Sequence record: MT611523.1
Length of the DNA stretch: 64,000 nucleotides
Reading direction: 5' to 3' (one strand)
From: Escherichia phage DK-13
The position numbers were made by a program, and so were the translations under genes. A model generated the notes under the pieces. That model did no database searches. It saw only the letters and a list, made by a program, of their open reading frames with translations, and was not told where the DNA came from. Of the stretch, positions 3,933 to 63,703 are shown piece by piece. Positions within the stretch are counted from its first letter, which is position 1. The number at the start of each line of letters is the position of its first letter.

Positions 3933-4547
3933 TCAGTAAGAAAGAACGGAAAGATTCCATAATTTATAGTCTTCCCATCTATAAATGCTCTCAATAGAGT
4001 CCACGCGTAGCGTAGTTCCCGCAGGGAACATCATCTCATCTTCATCATTTACTAATTGCAAGTTTGAAGAACGAGTTATTTCAGGATATAGTCCGTTGAA
4101 CTCTTCAGGAGGTGCCGCACAAATCATTTTAAAAATCGCTTCCTGATAATCAAATGCGAATGGTGCATCATTAATACAGAAAATATTTTTGGTTCCATAG
4201 AAGCTAAAGGAAGCAAAGTTACGCGCAACACTGAAATCTTTGGAGAAACTCATTACACGGTCAAACTCAATCGTAGCACCAACACATCCTACGGTTTCAA
4301 GATATGCCAAAGTTTTCTTAGAAATCCCGCGATATAACTTACCAGGCACAGCAGAAGTCAAATTCTTACGAATAATTTTGTTCAAAGTTTCCTGGATAGT
4401 GTCTGGCTTATTTTCCATACACTGCCAGAGTGTACTCTGTTCCAACTCAGAGTAAATTTCATCAATTTCAATCTGGGTATTTTCACGAAAATATTCACAT
4501 TTAACTGCATTGATGTACTCTGCTAATTGGTGACTTGCGTACAGCAT
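3933..4547 (-). CDS. modA: ADP-ribosyltransferase, ModA-like
   Basis: about 204 aa from ATG 4545-4547; LYRG ... SFSKDFSVARNF ... E-rich motif set shared with adjacent paralogue; T4 modA/modB position; ORF-track start 4580 is a leader read-through. Confidence 0.6.
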   Translation of the reverse strand: MLYASHQLAEYINAVKCEYFRENTQIEIDEIYSELEQSTLWQCMENKPDTIQETLNKIIRKNLTSAVPGKLYRGISKKTLAYLETVGCVGATIEFDRVMSFSKDFSVARNFASFSFYGTKNIFCINDAPFAFDYQEAIFKMICAAPPEEFNGLYPEITRSSNLQLVNDEDEMMFPAGTTLRVDSIESIYRWEDYKLWNLSVLSY

Positions 4548-4578
4548 TTTATTATCCTCATCAGTAGTTGATAGGAAC

Positions 4579-4608
4579 ATCTTAACGTGTCTTATTGCTC
4601 TTGTACAC
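4579..4608 (-). promoter_or_regulatory. sigma70-type early promoter with class-A leader
   Basis: -35 TGTACA (4603-4608), -10 TAAGAT-like at 4579-4585, conserved CCTATCAACTACTGATGAGGA leader. Confidence 0.45.
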
Positions 4609-5152
4609 AGTCAAGAACATAATAATCACCAACAAATCCAGCATCAACTATCACGAATTTCTGGTCAACTGGAACAAACCATTCAAGCTCAGAATCAATC
4701 ATGTCCATGTATTCTTCACGTCTTAACGTTGCCGCCTGTTCGGAACCAGAAGCTGTATTGAAGAATTCCAGTGGAACATCAAGCGCGAGCTTACGCATTA
4801 CATCATGGTAACAAAAAGCTTTTGTCTGATTCAATCTGACGATAGTCCTTGTCACATATTCCATTGCAGCAAAATCCCTGGCAATACCATAGTCTTCTGT
4901 AAAGGAGGTTATCCTTCCAAATTCAAAAGGTTGCATTGATTCTTTTGCTTCATCTAACAAATCAATCTCTTGCTGGGTCACCCCACGATACAAGACTGTA
5001 TCAGGTATAGACAACCTTGACTTGATGATTGAGTTAACGTTTGAATGCAAGGTCTTATCAACCTTTGATGTGCGGCATTCAAATAATGAAGCTATCTCCA
5101 TTTCACTAAATTTTAACTGGTTGGGTTCGGTATCAGATTTGATGATGTTCAT
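4592..5152 (-). CDS. modB: ADP-ribosyltransferase, ModB-like
   Basis: 186 aa; paralogous to the ModA-like ORF (LYRGV ... TSFTEDYGIARDFA). Confidence 0.55.
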   Translation of the reverse strand: MNIIKSDTEPNQLKFSEMEIASLFECRTSKVDKTLHSNVNSIIKSRLSIPDTVLYRGVTQQEIDLLDEAKESMQPFEFGRITSFTEDYGIARDFAAMEYVTRTIVRLNQTKAFCYHDVMRKLALDVPLEFFNTASGSEQAATLRREEYMDMIDSELEWFVPVDQKFVIVDAGFVGDYYVLDCVQEQ

Positions 5153-7055: not shown

Positions 7056-7289
7056 TTAAACTACTGGGGTAGGCGTAAACATCGCCGCGTTCTTAGTTCG
7101 CCAATCAGCTGCACTAGACGCTACGGTGACATAAGCGGCCTTTTCGGAAGGAAAAGTCTGATAGTGTGCATTAGCAATACGGTGCTCGTTCGAATAGATT
7201 TCAAACGGAACAGATACTTCAACACCTTTAACTTCAACACCTTCACCAGCTGGATGCGTAAAGGTTTTGATATTAACGAAACCACCCAT
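7056..7289 (-). CDS. soc: small outer capsid protein Soc
   Basis: 77 aa; GxVNIKTF ... AHYQTFPSEKAAY matches T4 Soc; canonical late promoter upstream. Confidence 0.85.
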   Translation of the reverse strand: MGGFVNIKTFTHPAGEGVEVKGVEVSVPFEIYSNEHRIANAHYQTFPSEKAAYVTVASSAADWRTKNAAMFTPTPVV

Positions 7290-7320
7290 AATTAACTCCT
7301 TTGTTGTTTAATTACAGGTG

Positions 7321-7328
7321 TATTTATA
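7321..7328 (-). promoter_or_regulatory. T4-type late promoter TATAAATA (soc)
   Basis: exact TATAAATA on minus strand about 30 nt upstream of soc ATG. Confidence 0.55.
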
Positions 7329-7332
7329 CTGC

Positions 7333-7566
7333 TTATTTTATCATAACCTTTTTAGTTAAAAGCTCGTCGGGATGCCTTCTGGCGTATGAAGGGCTTTCTT
7401 TTACTGGGGTATTTGAAATAACATCACTTAATTTATCAGCTCTAGCTTTTAATTCTACGTGTTCTTTTGAATCTTTAAAAGGATGACTAATTATTTGCAA
7501 ATTAAGACCATGTAATTCATATTTAAGCCCTTCCATAAATCTTGCTGGGCACCCGTAATTATTCAT
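7333..7566 (-). CDS. hypothetical protein (77 aa)
   Basis: co-oriented ORF between HNH gene and soc. Confidence 0.3.
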   Translation of the reverse strand: MNNYGCPARFMEGLKYELHGLNLQIISHPFKDSKEHVELKARADKLSDVISNTPVKESPSYARRHPDELLTKKVMIK

Positions 7567-8407
7567 TTTCGAACCTCTTTACCATGTTTATATAATTTTC
7601 GTCTGGATAACCTAAACTAACTGCTAACTTTCTAAAATTCACATATTTAGGTTTGTTATTACTAAGCCATAAATCTCTAAGCTCAATTTCATAATTCCAT
7701 TTAAGCTGGTTTCCTCTAGCAGTTTTGCTCAAAGTTTTTCCTTTATCTTTTAGAGCTTTTTCCGAAGACTGTTTTAATTTTTGGAGATTTAAAACTTCCT
7801 CAACAGATAAATTATTTTCTTCTGCATAGCGCGCACAAAAATCTTTTACTGTAGCTATTAGACAGTTTTTGTGGGTACCTAAAACTTCCGGATTATTTTC
7901 TTCAACCAAAACTCCCCAGTATCTTCGATAGCGAGGCATATCCCGCGAAATCCAGTCATTATACCAGAAATCAAAATTAGAATACATAAAGGATTTTCTT
8001 TTACGGAGAATGTCTTGCTCTATCCACTCCCCGCGTTTATCGGCCCATAACTTAATAGTAAGGTCTTTCTCTAAATCAGAAAGCTTCTTAAACTGGGCAC
8101 TATTTGTTAGTGTCATTCTCTGGAATGCATTAAGCAAACCCAACACCCGAGTTGAGCACAAAAGATAATGAACATATATGTGTTGGTATATAGGAAGATA
8201 CACCCTATTCCAAGGAGAGATTTTAAAATCGCTGTATTCTGGAAATGCACACTTCGGAAGTATATGATGAGCTTCCGTTTTAGATTTGGTATGGACGTTT
8301 AGTTTATACTTATCTATAATTTTTAAGTAATCATCTAAAAGTTCCCATTGCGGGAACTTTTCTTTAAGAACGGATTTGAAATTAATATCCATTGTCCTGA
8401 CGTTCAA
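7559..8407 (-). CDS. HNH homing endonuclease (Mob-like), freestanding
   Basis: TEAHHILPK HNH core motif; sits at the gene 56/soc junction where T4 carries segF; 5' end overlaps gene 56 so exact start is uncertain. Confidence 0.75.
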   Translation of the reverse strand: MNVRTMDINFKSVLKEKFPQWELLDDYLKIIDKYKLNVHTKSKTEAHHILPKCAFPEYSDFKISPWNRVYLPIYQHIYVHYLLCSTRVLGLLNAFQRMTLTNSAQFKKLSDLEKDLTIKLWADKRGEWIEQDILRKRKSFMYSNFDFWYNDWISRDMPRYRRYWGVLVEENNPEVLGTHKNCLIATVKDFCARYAEENNLSVEEVLNLQKLKQSSEKALKDKGKTLSKTARGNQLKWNYEIELRDLWLSNNKPKYVNFRKLAVSLGYPDENYINMVKRFENE

Positions 8408-8897
8408 AGTTGTGTTTATTTTTCAAATAATAAAGTTTAAACATTTCTTCGGCTGACATATTAAGACCAATAGCCATATTGAATACAAAGTGCATAATGT
8501 CAATTAATTCAAATTTAATTTCGAGTTGGTCTTCAGGAGACATTTCTGAAATAGGTTTAGCTTGTGCTTCCAGATAACGAGCTTTCCATTTTTTCCAGAC
8601 ACCTGAAGCATCTTTTTCACCTTTAGACATTTCACCGAGAGAAGTCAAAAGTTCACGGAATTCATCATCAATACAGTCTTTCTGTTCGCGCATCCAGGCA
8701 ACTACATCGCCTGCAGTGGCCAGTTTATCCGGATGGTAGCAATAATCACGGTCATTAGCCAGACGAACCTGCAATGATTTCTGCATATCAAGCATAACTT
8801 GCAGTGGGTCAGTGCCTTCAAAAATTGCATTATCATAAGCGCCTTGAGCTTTATCAACACCAGCAATCAGTTGAGAACACTCGTTAAAATGAGCCAT
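8382..8897 (-). CDS. 56: dCTP pyrophosphatase (MazG-like) gp56
   Basis: near-collinear match to T4 gp56 from MAHFNEC onward; ORF-track start 8915 extends 6 codons upstream. Confidence 0.9.
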   Translation of the reverse strand: MAHFNECSQLIAGVDKAQGAYDNAIFEGTDPLQVMLDMQKSLQVRLANDRDYCYHPDKLATAGDVVAWMREQKDCIDDEFRELLTSLGEMSKGEKDASGVWKKWKARYLEAQAKPISEMSPEDQLEIKFELIDIMHFVFNMAIGLNMSAEEMFKLYYLKNKHNFERQDNGY

Positions 8898-8957
8898 TAT
8901 ATTTTTCCTTATCAATTCATGTTGTTTGTATGTTAATTATATCGTATTGGTTTAAAG

Positions 8958-8965
8958 CATAAATA
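8958..8965 (+). promoter_or_regulatory. late-promoter-like CATAAATA
   Basis: CATAAATA 16 nt upstream of plus-strand ATG 8982; one mismatch from TATAAATA. Confidence 0.3.
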
Positions 8966-8981
8966 CACGGAAGGAGGATAT

Positions 8982-9179
8982 ATGCTCAAACTATCTAGTC
9001 TAATTCAAGCCATCAAAGGCAGTCGTAAGCGAACGATTCTGGTCCTTTCGATACTCTGTTTAGTTCTACTCTGGAACTTCGTTGTTGCCCCTATTGCATT
9101 GGCACATGGTGTTATATTGCCAGTCGTCGCGCTCGAATCAGTTGTAGATGTTTCACTGGCATTAATCGGCCTTATATAG
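8982..9179 (+). CDS. small hydrophobic protein (65 aa), plus strand
   Basis: strong SD GGAAGGAGGA 7 nt before ATG; two predicted TM segments; opposite orientation to the surrounding array. Confidence 0.5.
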   Translation: MLKLSSLIQAIKGSRKRTILVLSILCLVLLWNFVVAPIALAHGVILPVVALESVVDVSLALIGLI

Positions 9180-9221
9180 GTGGAACTATGTGAACATTAT
9201 TCTATCAGATTTGGAAATTAA

Positions 9222-9362
9222 CCAGTAAGAAAAGCCCATGATGTTTCTCTGTGGAACTTACTGGTTGTGCCTATCGCTGCAACACAAGGGGTGCACTTAC
9301 CTCAGGTCACAACGGAACATATCCATTCCATCATCGGTTACTTTACCGGAATCCCTTCCTAA
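9222..9362 (+). pseudogene. start-less, rearranged partial copy of the 8982-9179 gene
   Basis: translation ...LWNLLVVPIAATQGVHLPQV aligns with ...LWNFVVAPIALAHGVILPVV of the upstream gene; no start codon; preceded by a copy of that gene's 3' end. Confidence 0.35.
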
Positions 9363-10108
9363 ACTTTTGCGTACTTCCAAAAATGGCCGTTTGACCTATA
9401 CATTCGGCCTGTCTTTTTATTTCTTTTACAAGCTGTGTATATATTTTGAGTATTGCCCGCCAATTGTAATAATTCCTTTGCCTCAGCTCCCGAATTATAC
9501 TTTTCAAGTATATTACCAAATTCATCGCATCTACAAACCGGTGTTCCAGTTGCCTTTCGGCATGCTTCTCGGCGCAACTTTTTCGTTTCTTCGGTTTGCG
9601 GATTTTCTTTAAATCGTCTCATTTGTGCATCGCGATTCTTTTGCCGTTGTTCATCAGTAATTGGATTATTTTGATAATACAATTTTAATGAGTTGGCTAT
9701 TTTGCTTTTGGTTTTATCAGACGCAGGGTGGTCGTTATGTCGCTTGTGTAAAGCAATTAACATTTTGTCTTTAAACTCGGATTGACTCCATAAGTTTGAC
9801 ATATGTTCACTAACGGCTTTACTATGTTCTTTTCGCATCCATTCATATTTTGCGCTATCAAATTTGTCACCACACATCCGGTGTATAGCAAACATTAATT
9901 TAGAAAGTCGATAAATTTTAAAAAGTAACAAATGCGCAATAAAATGTTCTCTTGCTGATAACAATACCAAATTATCTTCGGTGTCAGGCCCACCCAAACA
10001 CCTTGGTAGTATATGATGGGACTCCGTATAAAATGGGATATTCTTTTTGTTTAGGCCCCTTGCGAGGCCTTTGTCTATTAATTTATTATATAATTTTAGA
10101 TAATTCAT
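9359..10108 (-). CDS. HNH homing endonuclease (Mob-like), freestanding
   Basis: ESHHILPRCLGG ... N ... H HNH motif; ATG overlaps gene 61 stop (ATGA). Confidence 0.8.
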   Translation of the reverse strand: MNYLKLYNKLIDKGLARGLNKKNIPFYTESHHILPRCLGGPDTEDNLVLLSAREHFIAHLLLFKIYRLSKLMFAIHRMCGDKFDSAKYEWMRKEHSKAVSEHMSNLWSQSEFKDKMLIALHKRHNDHPASDKTKSKIANSLKLYYQNNPITDEQRQKNRDAQMRRFKENPQTEETKKLRREACRKATGTPVCRCDEFGNILEKYNSGAEAKELLQLAGNTQNIYTACKRNKKTGRMYRSNGHFWKYAKV

Positions 10109-11133
10109 ATTTTTGCATATTTGGATAATCGAAGTTTTGCCATTAAACCTTGTGCAATATTATCATTCATATAGGCTTCAATTTGCTCAGGCGTTGCTCC
10201 TTCCGATTTAATCATTTCATTTATATCTTTCGTATGCCACGGTGCATTGTCCCAGAACATAACAGCTTCTCCTGCATCGACTAATTTCTTCATACGTTTA
10301 ATTGTATCAGGATGTCTTGCTTCTGAATCCATCACCCATACTCTGGTTTCTGGATAAGGAACAGCTTCCAATGACAATGTTCCACCAGTTATCGCAATGC
10401 TGTTAGGGATAAACAAACTATCAATCGGACCTTCCATTACCCATACACGTTTACGCTCATCAATCTTGTCTACGCCATAGACTTTGGAAGCTTCTGGGTG
10501 AGCTTTGATTGTGATATATTTTTGTGGTGCATCTTTGCGAAGAGCTCGTCCTTGGAAAGATTCGATTTCTTTTTTGCCGTTGAAGATAGGAATAACCAAG
10601 CGTGGTTCATTCGTTTCATTCTTATACGTCCCAGGATTAACGGAGTTAACTAATGCGGGCCATTGGTTTGTAAACCATAACCGGTTCCAAACATTGCTCG
10701 GAATACACCGACTTTTTACATACTTAACTATCGGATGCGCTTCTGGTAAAGTATCGAGTCTTTCACAAAAAGCAAGCTGCTCAATAACCGGAGTTTTTTC
10801 TGGTTCTTTCGGAGTTTCAATGACTTCATTGCGTTGTCGCCCGAAGGCGTTCTCCTTATACTTCTCAACCATATATTCCCGGTGTAAATCCGGCTCAAAC
10901 TCTTTTATGTATTTGCTTATATGCGTGGAGTAGTCACAGTTAAAACATTTCACGTAAACCGCACCATCAGCCGGATTAGTATACGCCCAGAATCGAGCCT
11001 TGTGTGAATCTTTCTGGGAGTCCCCACAAACCTTGCAACGACAGTTTGCTTTAAATGTGCTCCCGGTGACTTCTCTATAACGTGGTTGATACGATAAAGC
11101 TCTGACTGCAAATTCTTTATCAATATATGACAT
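10105..11133 (-). CDS. 61: DNA primase gp61
   Basis: 342 aa; N-terminal CxxC...CxxC zinc ribbon and TOPRIM-like core; T4 gene order 56-61-41. Confidence 0.9.
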   Translation of the reverse strand: MSYIDKEFAVRALSYQPRYREVTGSTFKANCRCKVCGDSQKDSHKARFWAYTNPADGAVYVKCFNCDYSTHISKYIKEFEPDLHREYMVEKYKENAFGRQRNEVIETPKEPEKTPVIEQLAFCERLDTLPEAHPIVKYVKSRCIPSNVWNRLWFTNQWPALVNSVNPGTYKNETNEPRLVIPIFNGKKEIESFQGRALRKDAPQKYITIKAHPEASKVYGVDKIDERKRVWVMEGPIDSLFIPNSIAITGGTLSLEAVPYPETRVWVMDSEARHPDTIKRMKKLVDAGEAVMFWDNAPWHTKDINEMIKSEGATPEQIEAYMNDNIAQGLMAKLRLSKYAKI

Positions 11134-11165
11134 AGTTTCCTCATTTCAATGGCCCCGAAGGACCA

Positions 11166-11333
11166 TTATACTGTAGGTTTATCGTCTTTGTTCTTACGCT
11201 TTTTTGATGGGATTTGTTCAGGGCCTTTATTGACAACTGCCCCGGAAGTGGTACCTGTTGCGATATTAGTTGGGTTTCCACCTGCATCACCGGCAACCAT
11301 ATTTTCGTTGATAAAATCTTTGAATGTTTTCAT
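11166..11333 (-). CDS. small protein with capsid-targeting-like N-terminus (55 aa)
   Basis: MKTFKDFINE followed by I-x-E resembles the T4 internal-protein CTS (MKTYQEFIAE); exact TATAAATA 17 nt upstream. Confidence 0.4.
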   Translation of the reverse strand: MKTFKDFINENMVAGDAGGNPTNIATGTTSGAVVNKGPEQIPSKKRKNKDDKPTV

Positions 11334-11349
11334 AACACCCCCTTTCCGC

Positions 11350-11357
11350 TATTTATA
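11350..11357 (-). promoter_or_regulatory. T4-type late promoter TATAAATA
   Basis: exact TATAAATA on minus strand upstream of ORF 11166-11333. Confidence 0.45.
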
Positions 11358-11544
11358 CAACGAAGATAGCTTTATCACCATTTGCATCAGTCACTTCATA
11401 AGTGTCTTCATGATACAATGGAATAATCCAGGTAACACCATCATCAGCGATAACATGGATTGCTTCTTGGTCTTGCGACACGATTTCATATTCTTCAAAA
11501 ATCTGGAAGACGGAAATCTTAGAGCCCGTACACATTGCACTCAT
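11353..11544 (-). CDS. hypothetical protein (63 aa)
   Basis: co-oriented acidic ORF. Confidence 0.3.
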   Translation of the reverse strand: MSAMCTGSKISVFQIFEEYEIVSQDQEAIHVIADDGVTWIIPLYHEDTYEVTDANGDKAIFVV

Positions 11545-11740
11545 ATTGTTCCCTTCTTTTAATCAGTTGGCGATGTGCCTTTTTAAGTTTACGAATCTGA
11601 CGTTTAGTCGGTCGAGCAACGTAAGCTTGAGTAGTTACTCGTCCAAAAACTCCATACTTGGGAGACGGAGTATCAATAAAGACTTCCCATTGACAAGAGT
11701 AACTATATATTGCTTTAGAGAATTGGGTCAAAACAAACAT
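11519..11740 (-). CDS. small basic protein, PTKRQIR paralogue 1 (73 aa)
   Basis: W..hI ... Y.ARPTKRQIRKLKK motif shared with ORFs 12887-13126 and 35730-35915. Confidence 0.45.
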   Translation of the reverse strand: MFVLTQFSKAIYSYSCQWEVFIDTPSPKYGVFGRVTTQAYVARPTKRQIRKLKKAHRQLIKRREQYECNVYGL

Positions 11741-11741
11741 A

Positions 11742-12095
11742 TTAACCTCGCTTCATGAAGGCATTAAAAATCTGGTCGTCAACAGACTGTTCTTGAGCTT
11801 TGACCCAAGCTCCTTCCAGAATGTCATTCGCTTCAGTAGATATCATGACCCCAATTTCAGGGTTTCCTGTTATCCATGCTGCACAATCGCGCACATTCTT
11901 TTTATCAAATGGGTAGCCGCGAGTATCTTCATAAGGTCCATTCATTACCATAAATGAGCGAGCCTTTATGATAACATCATCTTTAACGATAATATAACCA
12001 ATCGCCTGATTAAACCGAGGCTCACGGAATTCATAATGAGCATTACCGTCATTATTGCTCGCTAGTTCAAAATTCAGAAAATTATAATAACTCAT
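11742..12095 (-). CDS. hypothetical protein (117 aa)
   Basis: C-terminus VDDQIFNAFMKRG encoded by the 37-nt direct repeat shared with the next gene. Confidence 0.45.
   Translation of the reverse strand: MSYYNFLNFELASNNDGNAHYEFREPRFNQAIGYIIVKDDVIIKARSFMVMNGPYEDTRGYPFDKKNVRDCAAWITGNPEIGVMISTEANDILEGAWVKAQEQSVDDQIFNAFMKRG
11747..11783. repeat. 37-nt direct repeat, copy 1 (CTCGCTTCATGAAGGCATTAAAAATCTGGTCGTCAAC)
   Basis: identical to 12102-12138; encodes the last ~12 codons of both adjacent genes. Confidence 0.8.
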
Positions 12096-12096
12096 A

Positions 12097-12534
12097 CTAA
12101 TCTCGCTTCATGAAGGCATTAAAAATCTGGTCGTCAACTGAATATACAGGGGTTTCCAGAATTTTCAAAAGACTGTTTTTGATGTACTTACCCGGGATAC
12201 CCATATTAACAATACTGTCATTCAATTCATTGTCAGGGTTGATGTCTTTAAATTCAAACCCGTCAAACTCAACCTTGTCAGGAATACCATCAGCGAAAAA
12301 ATAAACCAATTGGTGCATTGTATTGCACGAAAATAATTTGGACTTGACCGCAATAAGTTCTTTCCAATGGTTTAATTCTTTGTTAAGAAGCTTATGAGCA
12401 AACGTAATTCTATCATCACTATCAACAAGAAAATAACCCAGGTATTGAATGTCGTCGCTCCAAAACACCCGGTATGCCTGTGCATTTGGATTTTTACAGC
12501 GAAGTTTTTTGATAACTAAATTTCTGTTAATCAT
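12097..12534 (-). CDS. hypothetical protein (about 145 aa)
   Basis: internal Met start chosen to avoid overlap with upstream ORF; C-terminus SVDDQIFNAFMKRD from repeat copy 2. Confidence 0.4.
   Translation of the reverse strand: MINRNLVIKKLRCKNPNAQAYRVFWSDDIQYLGYFLVDSDDRITFAHKLLNKELNHWKELIAVKSKLFSCNTMHQLVYFFADGIPDKVEFDGFEFKDINPDNELNDSIVNMGIPGKYIKNSLLKILETPVYSVDDQIFNAFMKRD
12102..12138. repeat. 37-nt direct repeat, copy 2
   Basis: identical to 11747-11783. Confidence 0.8.
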
Positions 12535-12535
12535 T

Positions 12536-12829
12536 TTATTCACCTGTAACCCATTGAACAATTTTGCTATTGTCAAATGAAGCATCGCAATACAGAACAT
12601 AGTTATACTGCATAACGTCACCAGAAGTCAATTTGTCAGATACTTCTTTAACCATATCAGGGCGGTCACGTTTAGTTATGTTCATAATATCAGCATAAAT
12701 CTGATGTTCAACATCAGTCTGGTCGGCAGTCATAGACCACTCACAAAGGTCTTTATCAAGTCCAGCAGTAACTGGAGCTGTACCACATGATGCTACGGTA
12801 AGAATTGCCGCGATTAATAACTTTTTCAT
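12536..12829 (-). CDS. secreted lipoprotein/periplasmic protein (97 aa), possibly Spackle-like
   Basis: signal peptide with lipobox-like VASC; T4 sp position between 61 and 41; own class-A promoter. Confidence 0.45.
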   Translation of the reverse strand: MKKLLIAAILTVASCGTAPVTAGLDKDLCEWSMTADQTDVEHQIYADIMNITKRDRPDMVKEVSDKLTSGDVMQYNYVLYCDASFDNSKIVQWVTGE

Positions 12830-12857
12830 TTCAATCTCCTCAGTAGTTGATAGGGAT

Positions 12858-12886
12858 AATATACAGCATTATCCCTTTGTTGTACA
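12858..12886 (-). promoter_or_regulatory. sigma70-type early promoter with class-A leader
   Basis: -35 TGTACA (12881-12886), 17-nt spacer, -10 TATATT; leader CCCTATCAACTACTGAGGAG. Confidence 0.5.
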
Positions 12887-13126
12887 CTATTTTAATGCAT
12901 CTTCCAGATAAATTTTGCGGAATTTGCGTTTTGTCTGACGAATCTGACGCTTGGTAGGTTTCACAGGAAATTCGAAGAACTCTACGTATTCTTGTTCATA
13001 ATCATTGTGGCCGACTGAAAGAACTAGTTCCCAGCTGCTTACGGTGCGTTGGATAAACATATTATGCTTACCAAAAGATTTATTCCAAAAAGAACTAGGG
13101 GTAGGTTTCATTAATGCGATATTCAT
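12887..13126 (-). CDS. small basic protein, PTKRQIR paralogue 2 (79 aa)
   Basis: VKPTKRQIRQTKRKFRK C-terminal motif. Confidence 0.45.
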   Translation of the reverse strand: MNIALMKPTPSSFWNKSFGKHNMFIQRTVSSWELVLSVGHNDYEQEYVEFFEFPVKPTKRQIRQTKRKFRKIYLEDALK

Positions 13127-13330
13127 TTAAATTTCCTCAATGCGGGCATCATATTCAAAAACTTTATTGTCATTAACAAAGGCTTTAACCAGCGCATTAT
13201 TCACTTCTGCATACTGCACTGTAACCCATTCAATCATATTTTTGTCACTAACATCCAGCGCGGTTTCTTTGGTAAACATATTACCGTTTTCAAACCAACC
13301 AATAAATACTACGTTCTCTAATTTATACAT
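13127..13330 (-). CDS. hypothetical protein (67 aa)
   Basis: co-oriented ORF. Confidence 0.4.
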   Translation of the reverse strand: MYKLENVVFIGWFENGNMFTKETALDVSDKNMIEWVTVQYAEVNNALVKAFVNDNKVFEYDARIEEI

Positions 13331-13648
13331 TTAGATTTCCTCGCAGAAGGCCCAGGCAGCGTGATAAACTGTTGCGCCTTTAGTATCATTTAAACAAACC
13401 ACGTCAACCGGTGCAATCACACGATAAAGACGGGGTTCTCCTCCATATGAGCGAGCTGCTCTTCCTGCATAGATACGTGCCAAACCAATATCTTCAGTAA
13501 AAAACACACGCCCTAAATTTTTCTTACGCCCAACTTCTGACAGAACACCAGTTGCATCAGGAGGGCAAAGCATATTTTGGATTCCAGCATTAGAGCTTGA
13601 CCCATGATAATAAACTTTGTATTCTGCCTTGCAATCAATGGTTTTCAT
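13331..13648 (-). CDS. small Arr-like ADP-ribosyltransferase-fold candidate (105 aa)
   Basis: YYHGSS ... FFTED ... GGEPRLYRV pattern resembles minimal Arr-type ART motifs; first gene after gene 41 where T4 has dmd. Confidence 0.3.
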   Translation of the reverse strand: MKTIDCKAEYKVYYHGSSSNAGIQNMLCPPDATGVLSEVGRKKNLGRVFFTEDIGLARIYAGRAARSYGGEPRLYRVIAPVDVVCLNDTKGATVYHAAWAFCEEI

Positions 13649-47825: not shown

Positions 47826-48108
47826 CTTCCAATTTTACCTTCATTAATTTAGCGTACTCTCTCGCCGCAGCTTTACCATCGCTTTTGCAGGTAATTTCAG
47901 TTTCGCATTGGCTTTTGTTGTTCCATTCAGTCTTGATAAACGCCCAGAACTGTTCGGATTGGTGCACGCTTGGTTCTTTGAATTGCGAATAAATCTTCAT
48001 CGCACTATCTGCATATTGGGTAAACTTCCCATCTGTTGCAGAGGACAGATTTGGACCTAAACAGCCCAGGATTATTAGACTTAATGAAAGTCCTCGAATA
48101 AGGTCCAT
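47815..48108 (-). CDS. rI: lysis-inhibition regulator rI-like
   Basis: 97 aa; N-terminal signal anchor; SEQFWAF and KLE motifs; adjacent to tk as in T4. Confidence 0.5.
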   Translation of the reverse strand: MDLIRGLSLSLIILGCLGPNLSSATDGKFTQYADSAMKIYSQFKEPSVHQSEQFWAFIKTEWNNKSQCETEITCKSDGKAAAREYAKLMKVKLEDEI

Positions 48109-48180
48109 AAGGACTCCTATTGTTGGTCATGATTACGCTTTGCAGCCTTAACATAGCGGAATACTAGTTAGTAACTGTAT

Positions 48181-48456
48181 TTATAATCTTTTAAAATTAA
48201 AGCAGTACTCTGAAAATAAACTTGCAAAATTACGTTCGACCCAGACCCGTTGTTTTGGGCTGGTAATCGTTGACAAATAGTACGCTTGTTGCAGGCTTAT
48301 TCCGTTTTTATTCGGGCACTCTTTGTTGAACGAGTGATAGGTACTTGCAACGATTTCGACTTCGCGCTCATACCTTTCCTGGTCCTGTTGCATAGGAACA
48401 AAAACCAAAACCAGGAATATCAAAATAGAGATATACGTCCAAACCTTGTATACCAT
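48181..48456 (-). CDS. membrane-anchored protein (91 aa)
   Basis: co-oriented ORF with N-terminal TM helix. Confidence 0.4.
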   Translation of the reverse strand: MVYKVWTYISILIFLVLVFVPMQQDQERYEREVEIVASTYHSFNKECPNKNGISLQQAYYLSTITSPKQRVWVERNFASLFSEYCFNFKRL

Positions 48457-53256: not shown

Positions 53257-53565
53257 TTAGAAAGAACCAGAGCCTTTAATTGTGTTCTGGCGACCTTTAT
53301 TTTCTAATTCAGAATGGTCGATTTCGTATGCTTGTGCTACACCAAAGGCCTTTTTAACTTTAGCTAAAGAACCTTTAGATGTAACAATATTAAAAGTATT
53401 ACCTTTGGTAAAATCAACCAAATCAACCAAATCAACTTGTACACCCTGTTTACCGAGGCTTGCGACAATAGCATCAACATATTGTTGGTCTAAAGTACCT
53501 TGGACTCCAATTTGGAATGCTTTAGGGGCTTTGGCTTCTGTGATAAATTCTTGATAAGTTTTCAT
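53257..53565 (-). CDS. internal (head) protein with capsid-targeting sequence, IPIII-like
   Basis: starts MKTYQEFITE (T4 CTS MKTYQEFIAE) with I-x-E processing-type site; ORF-track start 53604 lies upstream of the promoter -10. Confidence 0.6.
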   Translation of the reverse strand: MKTYQEFITEAKAPKAFQIGVQGTLDQQYVDAIVASLGKQGVQVDLVDLVDFTKGNTFNIVTSKGSLAKVKKAFGVAQAYEIDHSELENKGRQNTIKGSGSF

Positions 53566-53595
53566 TTTATATTCCATTGTTTGGCTGATAAAATC

Positions 53596-53624
53596 ATTAT
53601 ACAACCTTTTTAGTTAAGCGTACA
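53596..53624 (-). promoter_or_regulatory. sigma70-type early promoter (internal protein gene)
   Basis: -35 TGTACG (53619-53624), 17-nt spacer, -10 TATAAT (53596-53601). Confidence 0.45.
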
Positions 53625-54030
53625 CAGCTTTCCCATAGTATTTGTACCAAGCAGGCTTTTGAGAAATTTTCTCATTCAGTCTGGCTTGACTGATTTCAAT
53701 TGACCAGATTGATGGTTGATAATCATTCTTCCATTCATCAGGAATATCAGTTAAATCTTGGGTAGAAATATCTTTTATGTTAAACCCTCGCTTTAAACAT
53801 TCCGCAATAAGTTCTTGATGCCGGTTTTTAAGGAACAAAAGCTTATCATAAAAGAAGGTGACATGACCAGTCCCTAAAAGGAAAGATGATGGGATTTTAA
53901 AGTCAGAAACCTTTTTACCATTTTGCACATGCTTACGAACAGCACCAAACACGCGAGGAAGCTCACGATATTCAGCCATAAGGTGTTGGTCAGCAAGTTC
54001 AGATACCAGGGTCAAATTAATGCGAGTCAT
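53614..54030 (-). CDS. denV: endonuclease V (pyrimidine-dimer DNA glycosylase)
   Basis: 138 aa, same length as T4 DenV; [12 protein letters not shown]...[10 protein letters not shown]-terminal catalytic region. Confidence 0.92.
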
Positions 54031-54085: not shown

Positions 54086-54355
54086 TCATTTCTTAGAGTA
54101 TTGACCCATAAGTTTAGCGATATCACCCAATTTCTGATTAAACAAATAATCCACTTCTTTGCCAGATTTATCTACAATTTGCCACTGGCCATTTCCTTTG
54201 TTACCAAAGGTCCAATCACCAACTTTAAATGAAGTTCCATTAACTTTTTTAATAGAAGTAAACTCAAAGCCTTCTTTCTTAGCTAAAAATGCCATGCGGC
54301 TTTCATCTGATTCATTTAATACAGATTCAGCCAAAAATTCTTGATACGTTTTCAT
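54086..54355 (-). CDS. internal (head) protein with capsid-targeting sequence, IPII-like
   Basis: starts MKTYQEFLAESVLNE; 89 aa. Confidence 0.6.
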   Translation of the reverse strand: MKTYQEFLAESVLNESDESRMAFLAKKEGFEFTSIKKVNGTSFKVGDWTFGNKGNGQWQIVDKSGKEVDYLFNQKLGDIAKLMGQYSKK

Positions 54356-54363
54356 ATTTTACC

Positions 54364-54855
54364 TTATTTGTATGCGTCAAAAGTTCCGGTGCGGAAAGTT
54401 TCAATAACTCGTTTAGCCCGGTTCGGAGTCTGGACTTTATACCATCTTGAGTCTGCCAGTTCCTTGGCAGCCGCTTCCCATGATTTAGCCTTCAGCAATC
54501 GCATACCCTTAGGAAAACCAGCAACACCAGCAACACCCATCTGGAATACCATATTAATGAGTGCACAACGACGAACTTCATCAAGTACATCATAAACAGG
54601 TTTTAAGACAGGATGCCTCAAGATTCCGGCTTTAGCTTTTTCGACCGAACGGTTAAACAATGTTTCAGCTTCGTGCTGGGTTATGCGACCATTACAGACG
54701 CGACCCATGAGCTTATCGAGCTCAGCACGAGCAACATCTTTTGATGGGTTCTTAGTTATCAGTTGCCCAATACCAATGGTCCAAAAACCTTCGGTATCTT
54801 TATACAAATCTAACTTACAACCTTCATCTATGCGTAACATTTCGAATATATTCAT
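54364..54855 (-). CDS. e: lysozyme (T4 e-type endolysin)
   Basis: 163 aa; [12 protein letters not shown]...YKDTEG...TIGIG with E11/D20/T26 catalytic residues; collinear with T4 lysozyme. Confidence 0.95.
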
Positions 54856-61167: not shown

Positions 61168-61611
61168 TTAAATTTCAAATTCTTTGCGGAAGTTGGAAGC
61201 ATAAGACTGAACTGATGCTTTGTTGAATCCAAACTCACGCACAATCATATCAATAACAGCTCTGCGAGCAGCACCATTAGACATATTAACAGTTTTGAAC
61301 ATATCATAGCATAAATCTTTGTTGCTCATACCGGAGCGTTTAGGTGCCTTACGTTCAGCTTTTGGTTCAGTCTTAGGAGTAGGTTTAACTTCTGGTTTAA
61401 CCTGTCCATCATTCAGACCTTTAAAAATTTTACCTGCCAGAGTTGCCAGTTTAGCAGCTTCGCCACGAGTGATACCAAATACTGCCGGGTTAAATGAAAT
61501 ACCTTCAGCTGTCAGACGTTTGAAGAACATACGTGCGGCGGATTGTGCTTCAGCTTCAGAAGAGTTGTTTAATGCCAGTTTAATGTACTTAACCAGTTTT
61601 GAAGTTTTCAT
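61168..61611 (-). CDS. hypothetical protein (147 aa), paralogous C-terminal domain
   Basis: C-terminal block NGAARRAVIDMIV...VQSYASNFRK shared with ORF 62064-62489. Confidence 0.45.
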   Translation of the reverse strand: MKTSKLVKYIKLALNNSSEAEAQSAARMFFKRLTAEGISFNPAVFGITRGEAAKLATLAGKIFKGLNDGQVKPEVKPTPKTEPKAERKAPKRSGMSNKDLCYDMFKTVNMSNGAARRAVIDMIVREFGFNKASVQSYASNFRKEFEI

Positions 61612-61653
61612 TTTATTATCCCGTTTGTTTATTTGGTAACTCAGTATGGAATC

Positions 61654-61682
61654 ATTATGTCTTAGTTAAATTCCAAAGTACA
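61654..61682 (-). promoter_or_regulatory. early promoter with class-B leader
   Basis: -35 TGTACT (61677-61682), 17-nt spacer, -10 CATAAT. Confidence 0.45.
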
Positions 61683-61684
61683 CA

Positions 61685-61981
61685 TTAATTTTCAGAAGTT
61701 GGGAAATAAACTTCAAAGTCATACATGTTTACTACCGCAGACGCGATTGCCTGGTACTGCATACCTAAGAAAGTTTTCTTATTCTTGCGCCACAAGTTAA
61801 CCATTTCTGTTTTGATGCATGCCAGGGAATAGTTGGATGCAGGATACTGTTTGATGATTGCAACAACTTCTTCAGAAGCAGTTTCACACAATTCATTCAG
61901 TTGAGCTTCAATTTTAGCAGAAATGATTGCTTTGTTTTCTTCTTGAGCTTGGGTAGCGTGCCATGCAGGTGCGTTAAACAT
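61685..61981 (-). CDS. hypothetical protein (98 aa)
   Basis: co-oriented ORF with class-B promoter. Confidence 0.45.
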   Translation of the reverse strand: MFNAPAWHATQAQEENKAIISAKIEAQLNELCETASEEVVAIIKQYPASNYSLACIKTEMVNLWRKNKKTFLGMQYQAIASAVVNMYDFEVYFPTSEN

Positions 61982-62022
61982 TTTATTCTCCAGTGTTTTA
62001 TTTGGTAACTCAGTATGGGATA

Positions 62023-62051: not shown

Positions 62052-62063
62052 CACTTTTCTCAA

Positions 62064-63274: not shown

Positions 63275-63658
63275 TTATCCGCGAGCGAATGCCATTGCAG
63301 CGCGTTCGTTGGCACGGTCAGTGATGTTCAAGAATTTATCACGAGCGATTTCGATTGGAGCACCAACCCAGTCAGCAGCACCATTACCTGGAGACTGTTT
63401 AGGGCGAACCATATAAGTTGAAACTTTGGAACCGGCTAGTTTGGCACCTGGTGCCGCGGCATTTTTAACGTCTTTAGCTTTGATGCCAAACCCAGTTACG
63501 ATACCCCAAGAAACACCATTAACGGGTTTCTTGAACATAACACGGTCACCAATTGAAACACCGGCTTTTTCTGGAGCCACTAAAGAAAATTTGCCAGCTT
63601 CAGTCAGTACGGATTCGGTGATGGTATTGCGATTTAAAAATTCTGCATATGTAAGCAT
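63275..63658 (-). CDS. internal-protein-like protein with CTS-like N-terminus (127 aa)
   Basis: starts MLTYAEFLNRNTITE (two I/L-x-E sites); exact TATAAATA 32 nt upstream. Confidence 0.45.
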   Translation of the reverse strand: MLTYAEFLNRNTITESVLTEAGKFSLVAPEKAGVSIGDRVMFKKPVNGVSWGIVTGFGIKAKDVKNAAAPGAKLAGSKVSTYMVRPKQSPGNGAADWVGAPIEIARDKFLNITDRANERAAMAFARG

Positions 63659-63689: not shown

Positions 63690-63697
63690 TATTTATA
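63690..63697 (-). promoter_or_regulatory. T4-type late promoter TATAAATA
   Basis: exact TATAAATA on minus strand upstream of ORF 63275-63658. Confidence 0.5.
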
Positions 63698-63703
63698 TTC
63701 CAT

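What the first reader, a model, noticed from the sequence alone, without database searches (positions are those of the whole stretch)
11166..11357. Extra capsid-targeting-sequence proteins with late promoters
Besides the two internal-protein genes flanking denV (MKTYQEF...), two more ORFs begin with CTS-like peptides followed by I/L-x-E sites: a 55-aa ORF (11166-11333, MKTFKDFINE) and a 127-aa ORF (63275-63658, MLTYAEFLNRNTITE). Both have exact TATAAATA about 17-32 nt upstream. In T4, internal proteins are injected with the DNA and at least one (IPI) blocks a host restriction enzyme, so these could be additional injected anti-defence cargo.
Basis: partly seen in the sequence, partly recalled or inferred. 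Interest (0 to 1): 0.55.

Follow-up and report, generated by a model that had tools for sequence, protein, structure and literature searches.

The report
Mini-copy of capsid protein's cleavage region
The 55-codon gene is the T4 gp61.1 homolog, a small, strongly conserved protein that copies the major capsid protein's cleavage site and the 'N-fist' next to it, so it is probably a head-assembly peptide rather than a typical injected anti-defence protein; the second gene is an orphan that may be a new internal protein.

Summary
Both ORFs and both exact TATAAATA motifs are real, on the minus strand, 16 and 31 nt before the ATGs.

ORF A (11166-11333) is not a new internal protein. It is the ortholog of T4 gp61.1 and sits directly upstream of primase gene 61. 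The family occurs in about 1,500 T4-like genomes and is under strong purifying selection.

The new point is that ORF A residues 2-46 align without gaps to gp23 residues 57-101 (BLASTP 2e-10; hhalign 96.5-97.4%). Its I-N-E10 falls exactly on gp23's L-T-E65 maturation site, and residues 11-36 match the gp23* N-fist (66-91). All four mapped CTS positions (4, 7, 8, 10) are satisfied. In 66 of 67 family representatives a Glu directly precedes the module.

The late-promoter motif recurs in several genera but is absent in T4, where the 61.1 transcript is early.

I infer prohead entry, gp21 cleavage after Glu10 and release of a 45-aa basic mimic of the gp23* N-terminus. This is not shown; the only particle evidence is a low-stringency MS hit in phage fD1.

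ORF B (63275-63658) is an orphan found in 15 near-identical phage records. It has the CTS targeting residues but Arg at position 10, and it forms a promoter-ORF-terminator cassette, so it is a plausible novel internal protein.

The parts
11350..11357 (-). Exact T4-type late-promoter motif TATAAATA, 16 nt upstream of the ORF A ATG. It overlaps the TAA stop of the upstream 63-aa ORF (11353..11544).
   Evidence: The same motif lies 21-24 nt before the ATG in Gaprivervirus, JS98-type and a third group with an unrelated upstream sequence, and at -35 before a long form. [GCA]ATAAATA variants occur at about -21 in further groups. It is absent in T4-type phages.
11338..11344 (-). Shine-Dalgarno-like AAGGGGG, 4-10 nt before the ORF A ATG.
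   Evidence: Read directly from the sequence. It supports Met1 rather than the internal Met12 as the start.
11166..11333 (-). ORF A: 55-aa ortholog of T4 gp61.1 (5.8 kDa, pI 9.5).
   Evidence: tblastn gives 83% identity to T4 61.1 and 100% to phage vB_EcoM_RZ. PHROG 1823 matches at E=6.6e-32. Synteny directly upstream of primase is conserved. pN/pS is 0.05-0.34.
11304..11333 (-). Codons 1-10, MKTFKDFINE: a CTS-type propeptide with the predicted gp21 cleavage after Glu10. It aligns with gp23 residues 56-65 (..AFGSFLTE).
   Evidence: The strict CTS regex matches only 3 of 794 candidates. Positions 4/7/8/10 are F/F/I/E, against the functional map in PMC9026906. The alignment places E10 on gp23 E65. 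gp21 removes 65 residues of gp23 (PMC9958956).
11226..11303 (-). Codons 11-36, NMVAGDAGGNPTNIATGTTSGAVVNK: the N-fist-like module, counterpart of gp23* residues 66-91.
   Evidence: BLASTP E=2e-10. hhalign gives 96.5% for the short form and 97.4% for the long form. The N-fist is defined as residues 66-91 in PMC7136217. AlphaFold2 predicts the module as disordered when alone.
11169..11225 (-). Codons 37-55, GPEQIPSKKRKNKDDKPTV: a conserved Gly-Pro then a Lys/Arg-rich tail. GP...KR aligns with gp23 G92-P93...R100-R101.
   Evidence: A K/R-rich tail is present in essentially all family members.
11147..11168 (-). UUCG-tetraloop hairpin (AUGGUCC-UUCG-GGGCCAU) overlapping the ORF A stop codon, in the 32-nt spacer before gene 61.
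   Evidence: Fold energy is -11.8 kcal/mol, z = -1.9.
10105..11133 (-). Gene 61 (DNA primase), the conserved downstream neighbour of ORF A.
63690..63697 (-). Exact TATAAATA, 31 nt upstream of the ORF B ATG.
63275..63658 (-). ORF B: 127-aa orphan protein (13.5 kDa, pI 9.9) with a CTS-like N-terminus, MLTYAEFLNR-NTITE|S-VLTE|A.
   Evidence: It is found only in 15 phage records, all at least 99% identical, and in one cluster among 5.8e9 proteins. No Pfam, PHROG or NCBIfam match. In VR20 it lies about 2.2 kb downstream of the ip9/ip6 cluster, after tRNA-Met/Arg. The AlphaFold2 model is unusable at pLDDT 36.
63614..63658 (-). ORF B codons 1-15: targeting residues Y4 and F7 are present and L8 is present, but residue 10 is Arg. 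Candidate cleavage sites are ITE15|S, and LTE20|A just beyond this stretch.
   Evidence: The functional map comes from PMC9026906.
63208..63237 (-). Intrinsic-terminator-like hairpin (AGCCCC..GGGGCU) plus a U-run, about 40 nt after the ORF B stop.
   Evidence: Fold z = -2.5; 3 of 200 shuffles fold as well.
53257..53565 (-). Comparator: canonical internal-protein gene (MKTYQEFITE|A), on one side of denV.
54086..54355 (-). Comparator: canonical internal-protein gene (MKTYQEFLAE|S), on the other side of denV.
7056..7328 (-). Internal control: TATAAATA (7321-7328) 31 nt upstream of a 77-aa Soc-like late capsid-decoration gene.
   Evidence: I identified it as Soc from my recollection of the T4 Soc sequence and from gene order next to gp56.

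Best explanation
ORF A: what is shown.
- ORF A encodes the gp61.1 protein of this T4-like phage (genus Gaprivervirus).
- That stretch covers the last nine residues of the propeptide, the gp21 maturation cleavage site (L-T-E65|A), the 26-residue N-fist of mature gp23*, and the start of the N-arm up to the invariant Arg-Arg.

ORF A: what is inferred.
1. The protein is made late from its own TATAAATA promoter, and also by read-through from upstream early or middle promoters.
2. Its N-terminus is a CTS in the same register as the internal proteins and as gp23 residues 56-65. This, perhaps together with the gp23-like segment that in gp23 faces the scaffold, carries it into the assembling prohead core.
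3. The prohead protease gp21 cuts after Glu10.
4. The product is a 45-residue, 4.6-kDa basic peptide (pI 9.7) whose N-terminus mimics that of gp23*. It would either remain inside with the DNA as an internal peptide, or use gp23's N-fist contacts with the scaffold core (before expansion) or with neighbouring capsomers (after expansion).
5. Its strong conservation suggests a morphogenetic role, such as tuning shell-core contacts or stabilising special positions, rather than host-specific anti-defence.

ORF B. It is a separate case: an orphan accessory gene built as a late promoter-ORF-terminator cassette. It has the CTS targeting residues but a displaced cleavage site. The best reading is a novel T-even-type internal protein, with unknown function and possibly an anti-defence role.
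For: Identity.
- tblastn gives 83% identity to T4 61.1.
- PHROG 1823 matches at E=6.6e-32.
- Synteny upstream of primase holds in T4, RZ, avDM1, CF1, phiM19 and KVP40-type phages.

Relationship to gp23.
- BLASTP gives an ungapped alignment of 20/45 identities, E=2e-10, with gp23 57-101.
- tblastn of ORF A hits annotated major head protein genes at E down to 6e-8.
- hhalign gives 96.5% (E=8.5e-10) for the short form and 97.4% (E=1.5e-11) for the long form.
- In the unique genome pairs printed, the Glu aligns with gp23 E65 when both are anchored on the Gly-Asp motif.
- NCBI and UniRef auto-name members 'major capsid domain-containing protein'.

Cleavage site.
- 66 of 67 family representatives have a Glu 0-1 residue before the module, and P3 is hydrophobic in 53 of 66. 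This holds across short (50-86 aa), long (about 130-185 aa) and about 250-aa architectures.
- ORF A has a single [LIVM]-x-E site.

CTS determinants.
- Positions 4 and 7 drive targeting, and 8 and 10 drive processing (PMC9026906). ORF A has F, F, I, E.

Late promoter.
- All four exact motifs in the window lie on the coding strand before ORFs, including soc.
- The motif is conserved before gp61.1 genes in three unrelated flanking contexts.

Role of the N-terminal region of gp23.
- It is inside the prohead and probably contacts the scaffold.
- Head-length (ptg) mutations A66D, A94V and G97S lie in it.
- It later forms the N-fist and part of the Soc sites (PMC9546572, PMC7136217).

Mimicry of the phage's own gp23.
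- In phiM19, whose gp23 lacks an N-fist, the gp61.1-like protein carries '..VE|GSAVPSTNTGNI..SPVL' against its own gp23 '..QE|AAPTTNTGNI..DPVL'. BLASTP gives E=0.001, and a shared 6-mer is reached in 2 of 5,000 shuffles.

Selection and expression.
- pN/pS is 0.05-0.34.
- The fD1 ortholog g034 was detected, at low stringency, in purified particles.

ORF B.
Against: - No experiment shows gp61.1 in heads or cleaved by gp21.
- In T4 itself the late promoter is absent, because the 61.2 stop codon abuts the 61.1 ATG. The T4 transcript is classed early and the protein was not detected by LC-MS (PMC9697503 supplement).
- The fD1 particle detection is low-stringency, and that preparation also contained clearly non-structural proteins such as MotA, topoisomerase and Ndd.
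- Published 3.3-3.4 A capsid structures, as far as I could read them, mention no unassigned N-fist-like density (one search found no such terms).
- Conserved placement between helicase gene 41 and primase gene 61 could instead hint at a replication-linked role.
- Co-variation between the module and the cognate gp23 within the N-fist clade is only marginal (P about 0.05-0.07).
- A second N-fist-less lineage (Melnitz) has the N-domain fused to an unrelated C-terminus with no gp23 mimicry.
- The late motif might serve gene 61 rather than ORF A.
- For ORF B, Arg10 removes the canonical processing residue, and nothing is known about the protein's fold.
Confidence: 0.5

Rival explanations
1. One reading: both proteins are extra internal proteins. 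They would be packaged through the CTS, cleaved, injected with the DNA, and would act against host defence systems as IPI does against GmrSD.
For: CTS targeting residues are present in both ORFs, and both have late-promoter motifs. ORF A lies in the dmd/tifA/sp/adfA region that has been called an 'anti-TA island', whose other genes were proposed as anti-toxin candidates (PMC9391042). Both mature products are basic. ORF B is narrowly distributed, sits in the plastic region near the ip cluster, and is a self-contained cassette. This matches the known diversity of T-even IPs (PMC3012670, PMC9026906).
Against: ORF A is near-universal and strongly conserved in T4-like phages infecting Escherichia, Klebsiella, Acinetobacter, Aeromonas, Vibrio and even Sinorhizobium. 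That is unlike counter-defence cargo, which tracks particular hosts. Its sequence is a copy of a capsid-assembly element. After cleavage only 45 residues remain, and they are predicted to be disordered. For ORF B there is no homology or structure, and Glu10 is missing.
Confidence: 0.2
2. gp61.1 works outside the head, in the cytoplasm, as a mimic of the gp23 maturation region. It could be a pseudo-substrate or regulator that restrains or times gp21 or gp23-scaffold interactions. It could also be a decoy for a host factor or abortive-infection sensor that recognises the N-terminal part of the major capsid protein.
For: Transcription is early in T4 and there is no late promoter there. The module tracks the phage's own gp23 N-terminus in phiM19. 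The gene sits in a counter-defence neighbourhood. Capsid proteins are known triggers of abortive-infection systems; that is my own background knowledge and was not tested here.
Against: A conserved cleavage motif in the gp23 register and a CTS-type N-terminus are not needed for a cytoplasmic decoy. Most lineages have a late-promoter motif. No known sensor maps to gp23 57-101. From memory, the Lit/Gol determinant lies just C-terminal to this segment; I did not verify that.
Confidence: 0.15
3. gp61.1 is an accessory factor of the primase-helicase (gp61/gp41) module. Its gp23-like segment would be an evolutionary relic of a partial gene duplication with no present role in heads.
For: The gene sits invariably next to gene 61 and usually near gene 41, from T4 to KVP40-type and Sinorhizobium phages. 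Its 3' end is tightly coupled to the gene 61 start in T4, where only 2 nt separate the 61.1 stop codon from the gene 61 ATG. It is classed early in T4.
Against: Purifying selection acts precisely on the gp23-like residues and on the Glu of the cleavage motif. In phiM19 the module matches that phage's own, different gp23 N-terminus, which a relic would not do. Late-promoter motifs are also present.
Confidence: 0.1

Closest known systems
T4 internal proteins IPI, IPII, IPIII and the variable IPs of T-even phages (CTS-bearing prohead cargo)
   Same: They share a 10-residue N-terminal propeptide in the same register, with an aromatic residue at 4, Phe at 7, Ile/Leu at 8 and Glu at 10 (ORF A). Both are small and basic, and both have a late-promoter motif. 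ORF B shares positions 4, 7 and 8, the plastic genomic neighbourhood and the narrow distribution.
   Different: ORF A is conserved in about 1,500 genomes at a fixed locus next to primase, not in an ip locus. Its 'cargo' is only 45 residues and is itself a copy of gp23's N-terminus. Orthologs in other genera replace the CTS with a folded domain of about 108 aa. ORF B has Arg at position 10, so any processing must occur at E15 or E20.
[quoted passage not shown]
   Same: The sequences are homologous over 45 residues with the cleavage Glu in register, including GD..G...IA.G.TSGA...GP and the following basic pair. The module is predicted to be disordered when alone, as the gp23* N-terminus is in the unexpanded prohead.
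   Different: There is no HK97-fold body. Pfam Gp23 begins at gp23 residue 88 and does not match. 'GDHGY' is replaced by 'GD[SA]GG'. After Gly-Pro the sequence becomes a Lys-rich tail instead of the N-arm.
Small prohead core proteins gp67 and gp68 and the internal peptides of T4
   Same: These are small proteins thought to enter the core, to be cut by gp21 and to leave short peptides in the head. Mutants affect head shape, which is the kind of role proposed here.
   Different: No sequence similarity was found (hhalign probability about 0.1%). Genes 67 and 68 lie in the head gene cluster, whereas 61.1 lies in the replication/early region.
Long N-terminal propeptides of head proteins in giant phages (SPN3US, phiKZ)
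   Same: The long gp61.1 forms have a domain of about 108 residues ahead of a protease-type site, like the propeptides of over 100 residues proposed to act as targeting sequences (PMC5694885).
   Different: Here the part after the cut is tiny. The N-domain is a confidently folded module (pLDDT above 90) that also occurs in unrelated larger phage proteins.

Membership tests
gp61.1 family (PHROG 1823; long form PHROG 2086) | Significant profile match over the whole protein | tested here: met
   phrog_1823 matches at E=6.6e-32 over residues 1-52. phrog_2086 matches at E=2.8e-16 to its C-terminal module. Identity to T4 gp61.1 is 83%.
gp61.1 family (PHROG 1823; long form PHROG 2086) | Position immediately upstream of primase gene 61, on the same strand | tested here: met
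   In the window, ORF A (11166..11333) precedes gene 61 (10105..11133). The same order holds in T4, RZ, avDM1 and CF1; in phiM19 the gp61.1-like gene lies two genes upstream of the primase.
CTS-bearing T4-type internal/prohead cargo proteins | Targeting determinants at propeptide positions 4 and 7 (Mullaney and Black 1996, as summarised in PMC9026906) | tested here: met
   ORF A has F4 and F7. ORF B has Y4 and F7. Window IPs have Y4 and F7. gp23 has F59 and F62 in the same register.
CTS-bearing T4-type internal/prohead cargo proteins | Processing determinants: hydrophobic residue at position 8 and Glu at position 10 (gp21 motif L/I-x-E) | tested here: inconclusive
   ORF A meets it with I8-N9-E10. 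ORF B does not, because it has L8-N9-R10. ORF B has alternative sites ITE15 and LTE20. According to PMC9026906, Asp10 blocks processing but not packaging.
CTS-bearing T4-type internal/prohead cargo proteins | Late expression | tested here: inconclusive
   Exact TATAAATA lies 16 and 31 nt upstream, with soc as a positive control in the same window. For gp61.1 the motif is conserved in several genera but absent in T4, where the transcript is early. No transcription data exist for this phage.
CTS-bearing T4-type internal/prohead cargo proteins | Physical presence in proheads/virions, cleavage by gp21, injection with the DNA | not testable with these tools
   The only evidence is a low-stringency LC-MS/MS detection of the fD1 ortholog g034, in a particle preparation that also held non-structural proteins.
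CTS-bearing T4-type internal/prohead cargo proteins | Hypervariable, lineage-restricted distribution in plastic loci | tested here: inconclusive
   ORF A does not fit: 1,486 phage records hold the module, at a fixed locus. ORF B fits: 15 records, all at least 99% identical, in the region downstream of the ip cluster.
Major capsid protein gp23 (Pfam PF07068, HK97 fold) | Match to the Gp23 domain / presence of the capsid fold | tested here: not met
   ORF A has no Pfam hit. The Pfam model starts at gp23 residue 88. Homology is limited to gp23 57-101. The database labels 'major capsid protein' on these small genes are therefore misnomers.
T4 late promoter | TATAAATA on the coding strand at a suitable distance upstream of a gene start | tested here: met
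   Function as a gp55-dependent promoter is not testable here.

The most novel reading that the evidence does not exclude
gp61.1 is an overlooked component of T4-type head morphogenesis: a free 'N-fist' peptide released by gp21 inside the prohead. It would use the same contacts as the N-terminus of gp23, either competing for the scaffold core (and so influencing head length or shape) or docking on the lattice at special positions. [quoted passage not shown]
Probability: 0.2. Interest if true: 0.78.

Novelty: new variant of a known kind. Interest (0 to 1): 0.58.

Why it matters
T4 head assembly is one of the best-studied morphogenetic pathways, and the CTS is used to load foreign proteins into T4 nanoparticles. 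A conserved, unstudied 54-55-residue gene that duplicates gp23's maturation site and N-fist would add a new player to that pathway. It would also give a concrete hypothesis for how the CTS recognises the core, namely by imitating the capsid protein's own N-terminal segment, and for where the CTS came from.

It also corrects two kinds of annotation. 'Hypothetical protein gp61.1' can be described as a gp23 N-terminal paralog. The label 'major capsid protein' on 60-160-aa genes next to primase is wrong.

ORF B adds a candidate to the pool of T-even internal proteins, a class in which IPI, and by genetic evidence IPIII, counteract host defences.

Tried and rejected
- Domain searches. Pfam and NCBIfam gave nothing for either ORF. 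PHROGs gave only 'unknown function' families.
- Core proteins. The long-form N-domain shows no similarity to the prohead core proteins gp67 or gp68.
- Structure of the long form. The N-domain is confidently folded and the module disordered. No solved structure matches it. BFVD matches are only to uncharacterised phage proteins. AFDB50 was unavailable.
- Structure of ORF B. The single-sequence AlphaFold2 model is useless (pLDDT 36), so I did not fold-search it.
- ORF B homologs. None beyond near-identical copies.
- Co-variation. Within the N-fist clade the test is only marginal (P about 0.05-0.07), so I do not rely on it.
- Replication of the phiM19 mimicry. It failed in Melnitz-3, where the N-domain is fused to an unrelated C-terminus.
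- Literature. 'gp61.1' appears only in two gene tables. The N-fist papers mention no free-standing copy or unassigned density. The T4 genome review PMC150520 is not held. The SPN3US paper and its T4 comparison do not mention 61.1.
- Lit/Gol decoy. I considered this idea, but from memory the Gol determinant lies C-terminal to residue 93, outside the homologous stretch. I did not verify this and did not pursue it.
- Internal start at Met12. I rejected it because there is no Shine-Dalgarno sequence before Met12 and a strong one before Met1.
Full report

The window comes from a T4-like phage of the genus Gaprivervirus. The 3.4-kb stretch tested (10000-13400) is about 98% identical to Escherichia phage vB_EcoM_RZ over the 85% it covers.

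Both ORFs exist on the minus strand at the stated coordinates:
- ORF A: 11166..11333, 55 aa, MKTFKDFINE...
- ORF B: 63275..63658, 127 aa, MLTYAEFLNRNTITE...

Exact TATAAATA lies at 11350-11357 and at 63690-63697 on the minus strand. There are 16 and 31 nt between each motif and its ATG.

The window holds only four exact TATAAATA, against 4.8 expected by chance, so the count is unremarkable. Their placement is not. All four are on the coding strand, 16-69 nt before an ORF start. One precedes the Soc-like capsid-decoration gene at 7289, a classic late gene, which acts as an internal positive control.

A strict CTS regular expression matches only 3 of 794 ORF candidates: the two internal-protein genes flanking denV, and ORF A. 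ORF B fits only a looser pattern.

**2. What ORF A is.**

ORF A is the ortholog of T4 gene 61.1, 'hypothetical protein', 54 aa, MKTFKEFIKEDMVAGDSGGNPENISIGTTSGAVVNKGPEQIPKKKKEESKEKEE.
- It matches PHROG 1823 at E=6.6e-32.
- It lies directly upstream of primase gene 61.
- It sits in the dmd / 61.4 (tifA) / sp / 61.2 (adfA) region, which Srikant et al. called an anti-TA island (PMC9391042).
- The conserved module is present in 1,486 phage records.
- Purifying selection is strong: pN/pS is 0.05-0.34 while synonymous sites are near saturation.

**3. The unexpected finding.**

Weaker tblastn hits of ORF A fell on major head protein genes. In several GenBank records the small gene next to primase is itself auto-annotated 'major capsid protein'.

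Direct comparison explains why:
- ORF A residues 2-46 align without gaps to T4 gp23 residues 57-101, with 20/45 identities and E=2e-10.
- Profile-profile comparison confirms this at 96.5% probability, E=8.5e-10.
- The long-form profile gives 97.4%, E=1.5e-11.

In this alignment I8-N9-E10 of ORF A falls on L63-T64-E65 of gp23. The prohead protease gp21 removes exactly the 65 N-terminal residues of gp23 (PMC9958956).

Residues 11-36 of ORF A correspond to gp23* residues 66-91. This is the 'N-fist', an unusual structure that contacts four neighbouring subunits (PMC9958956 and PMC7136217). According to PMC9546572, the N-terminal region of gp23:
- is disordered and lies inside the unexpanded prohead, where it probably touches the scaffold core;
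- carries the head-length mutations A66D, A94V and G97S;
- moves to the outer surface on expansion, where the N-fist helps form the Soc binding sites.

The Pfam Gp23 model begins only at residue 88, which is why no Pfam hit is seen.

**4. Family anatomy.**

An exhaustive profile search found 54 clusters at 50% identity. Together with 35 IMG/VR loci, these show three architectures:

| Form | Length | Layout |
|---|---|---|
| Short | 50-86 aa | CTS-like N-terminus plus module |
| Long | about 130-185 aa (PHROG 2086) | N-domain of about 108 aa plus the same module |
| Extended | about 250 aa | Module followed by an extra C-terminal region |

The long form occurs in 614 phage records, including RB69-type, Klebsiella, Acinetobacter, Aeromonas, Vibrio and Sinorhizobium phages. 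It is annotated '61.1' in Acj9, Acj61 and RB16.

Short and long forms share the same upstream neighbour gene, which ends ..YEVTDANGDKAIFV*. They are therefore alternative forms at one orthologous locus.

In 66 of 67 representatives a Glu sits 0-1 residue before '(M/V)(V/A)(A/G)GD(S/A)GG', with a hydrophobic P3 residue in 53 of 66. This is the L/I-x-E signature of gp21 substrates, conserved regardless of what precedes it.

AlphaFold2 predicts the long-form N-domain as a confident small fold (pLDDT above 90) and the module as disordered. No solved structure matches it. BFVD hits show the N-domain also occurs inside larger uncharacterised phage proteins.

**5. CTS determinants.**

Mullaney and Black's mutagenesis, as summarised in PMC9026906, assigns targeting to CTS positions 4 and 7 and processing to positions 8 and 10. 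Asp at position 10 blocks cleavage but not packaging.

| Protein | Pos 4 | Pos 7 | Pos 8 | Pos 10 |
|---|---|---|---|---|
| Window IPs | Y | F | I/L | E |
| ORF A | F | F | I | E |
| T4 gp23 (residues 59, 62, 63, 65) | F | F | L | E |
| T4 gp24 propeptide (MAKINELLRE\|S) | I | L | L | E |
| ORF B | Y | F | L | R |

 So the CTS, the end of the gp23 propeptide and the gp61.1 N-terminus share one register. I did not find this stated in the papers I could read.

ORF A contains a single [LIVM]-x-E site. Cleavage there would leave a 45-residue, 4.57-kDa peptide of pI 9.7.

**6. Promoter conservation.**

| Group of loci | Motif and position |
|---|---|
| Gaprivervirus, JS98-type, and a third group with an unrelated upstream sequence | TATAAATA 21-24 nt before the gp61.1 ATG |
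| A long-form group | TATAAATA at -35 |
| Three further groups | [GCA]ATAAATA at about -21 |
| T4-type phages | Absent; the 61.2 stop abuts the 61.1 ATG |

 Consistently, the T4 61.1 transcript is classed 'early' and the protein was not seen in a time-resolved proteome (PMC9697503 supplement).

**7. Does the module track the phage's own capsid protein?**

- Within the N-fist clade, 19 distinct lineage pairs give only a marginal cognate excess (P=0.049 by identity, P=0.07 by BLOSUM). gp23's N-fist is too conserved there for a powerful test.
- Sinorhizobium phage phiM19 has a gp23 of the N-fist-less type. Its gp61.1-like protein, two genes upstream of primase, ends '...IVEVE|GSAVPSTNTGNIPDTVAKKSPVLKRKEK'. 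Its own gp23 reads '...LLQE|AAPTTNTGNIATYDPVLISLVRR'. BLASTP gives E=0.001, and a shared 6-mer is reached by 2 of 5,000 shuffles. The module there copies that phage's own gp23 N-terminus. This argues that mimicry of the cognate gp23 N-terminus is the selected property.
- A second N-fist-less lineage, Methylophilales phage Melnitz-3, has the N-domain fused to an unrelated C-terminus with no such mimicry. The phiM19 case is therefore suggestive but single.

**8. Particle evidence.**

In the Tequatrovirus fD1, gene g034 (54 aa) lies immediately upstream of primase g033 and is the gp61.1 ortholog. It is flagged 'ppap', a low-stringency class of particle-associated protein by LC-MS/MS.

That preparation also contained MotA, topoisomerase, Ndd and 672 host proteins (PMC8309999). 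This shows only that the protein is made and co-purifies with particles.

**9. Mechanism proposed, with shown and inferred steps.**

Shown:
- orthology to gp61.1;
- homology to gp23 57-101 with the cleavage Glu in register;
- conservation of that Glu and of the module;
- CTS determinants;
- late-promoter motifs.

Inferred:
- entry into the prohead core through the CTS and/or the gp23-like scaffold-facing segment;
- cleavage by gp21 after Glu10;
- a 45-residue basic peptide that mimics the gp23* N-terminus. It would either stay with the DNA or use N-fist-type contacts with the scaffold (before expansion) or with capsomers (after expansion).

I put about 0.5 on this chain. The rivals are:
- injected anti-defence cargo (about 0.2 overall; lower for ORF A, higher for ORF B);
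- a cytoplasmic mimic, pseudo-substrate or decoy (about 0.15);
- a primase-linked accessory factor with a relic sequence (about 0.1).

**10. ORF B.**

- It occurs in only 15 phage records, all at least 99% identical.
- It falls in a single cluster among 5.8 billion proteins.
- It has no family match.
- In VR20 it lies about 2.2 kb downstream of the ip9/ip6 cluster, after two tRNA genes. The N-termini in that cluster (MKTFNELFNE, MQTLHEFLVE, MKTYQEFINE, MNIKTYNEFLAE) show the natural range of CTS variants.
- It has a late motif upstream and a terminator-like hairpin plus U-run downstream (z=-2.5), so it is a self-contained late cassette.
- The targeting residues are intact. Glu10 is replaced by Arg, and the next candidate sites are ITE15|S and LTE20|A.
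- The mature protein would be about 11-12 kDa with pI about 10.
- The structure prediction failed (pLDDT 36).

ORF B is best read as a candidate new member of the diverse T-even internal proteins. Its function is unknown.

**11. Verdict.**

ORF A is already annotated as gp61.1, but its nature appears not to be discussed in the literature I could search. It is a conserved mini-paralog of the capsid protein's maturation site plus N-fist, in CTS register. I rate this a new variant of a known kind (CTS/gp21-processed prohead proteins), of moderate-to-good interest because it is directly testable in T4 itself.

Noticed in passing
window 11742-12095 and 12097-12621 (minus strand): Two tandem ORFs (117 aa and 174 aa) both end in ...VDDQIFNAFMKRG/D, like the C-terminus of T4 gp61.2 (AdfA, ...IDDQIFNAFMNRG). 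This suggests a duplicated or diversified anti-DarT factor. Two further small ORFs (73 and 63 aa) lie between them and ORF A and are absent in T4.
   Followed up: no
window 11147-11168 (minus strand): A UUCG-tetraloop hairpin (AUGGUCC-UUCG-GGGCCAU, -11.8 kcal/mol) overlaps the ORF A stop codon, in the spacer before the primase gene. It may be an mRNA-stabilising or processing element.
   Followed up: partly
window 63700-63760 (minus strand): Just upstream of the ORF B late promoter lie two similar GC-rich hairpins with GUG loops (GGGCG-GUG-CGCCC and GGAUG-GUG-CAUCC). Each is followed by GGUA(G/C)UAUG. The region as a whole does not fold better than shuffles (z=-0.8), and the function is unknown.
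   Followed up: partly
window 53566-53685 and 54356-54475 (minus strand): The two canonical internal-protein genes flanking denV have no exact TATAAATA within 120 nt upstream, only one-mismatch versions (TACAAATA, TATAAAAT). The non-canonical ORFs A and B, by contrast, have exact motifs.
   Followed up: partly
window 48108-48185 (minus strand): The fourth exact TATAAATA lies 69 nt upstream of a 97-aa ORF with a signal-peptide-like N-terminus (MDLIRGLSLSLIILGC...). This may be a late periplasmic protein.
   Followed up: no
window 9359-10108 and 7559-8407 (minus strand): Two ORFs (249 and 282 aa) carry an H-H-I-L-P-[RK]-C motif typical of HNH-type homing endonucleases. One overlaps the 3' end of primase gene 61 by 4 nt.
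   Followed up: no
proteins P0027, P0047, P0050: In the family members of about 250 aa, the N-fist-like module and its Lys-rich tail are followed by '...RKMNEVSNFKQFVEGLE...'. This is a second CTS-like motif in front of another domain, as if two CTS-type genes were fused. P0044 and P0062 also end in CTS-like '...KKKTFDEFV...' / '...MSFSEWVE...'.
   Followed up: no
L002 (Aeromonas phage avDM1) 1501-1686; records MN038175, NC_025414, PV833086, OP946502 and others: Small gp61.1-family genes (61-160 aa) next to primase are annotated 'major capsid protein' in several GenBank records. This annotation error is caused by the N-fist homology.
   Followed up: yes
L110-L121, L124, L192 (gp23 N-termini): gp23 of cyanophages, pelagiphages, Methylophilales phages and the Sinorhizobium phiM12 group lacks the 'GDHGY...IAAG' N-fist insert. 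The N-fist is therefore restricted to one large branch of T4-like phages.
   Followed up: partly
L005 (VR20) 4200-4950 and 8600-9600; window about 61600-62100: Many small genes in the plastic region are preceded by near-identical early-promoter/stem-loop units (for example GGGATA...TATAATTATCCC). They resemble the PeSL promoter-terminator shuffling motifs described for T4-like phages (PMC4122927, title and abstract only).
   Followed up: no
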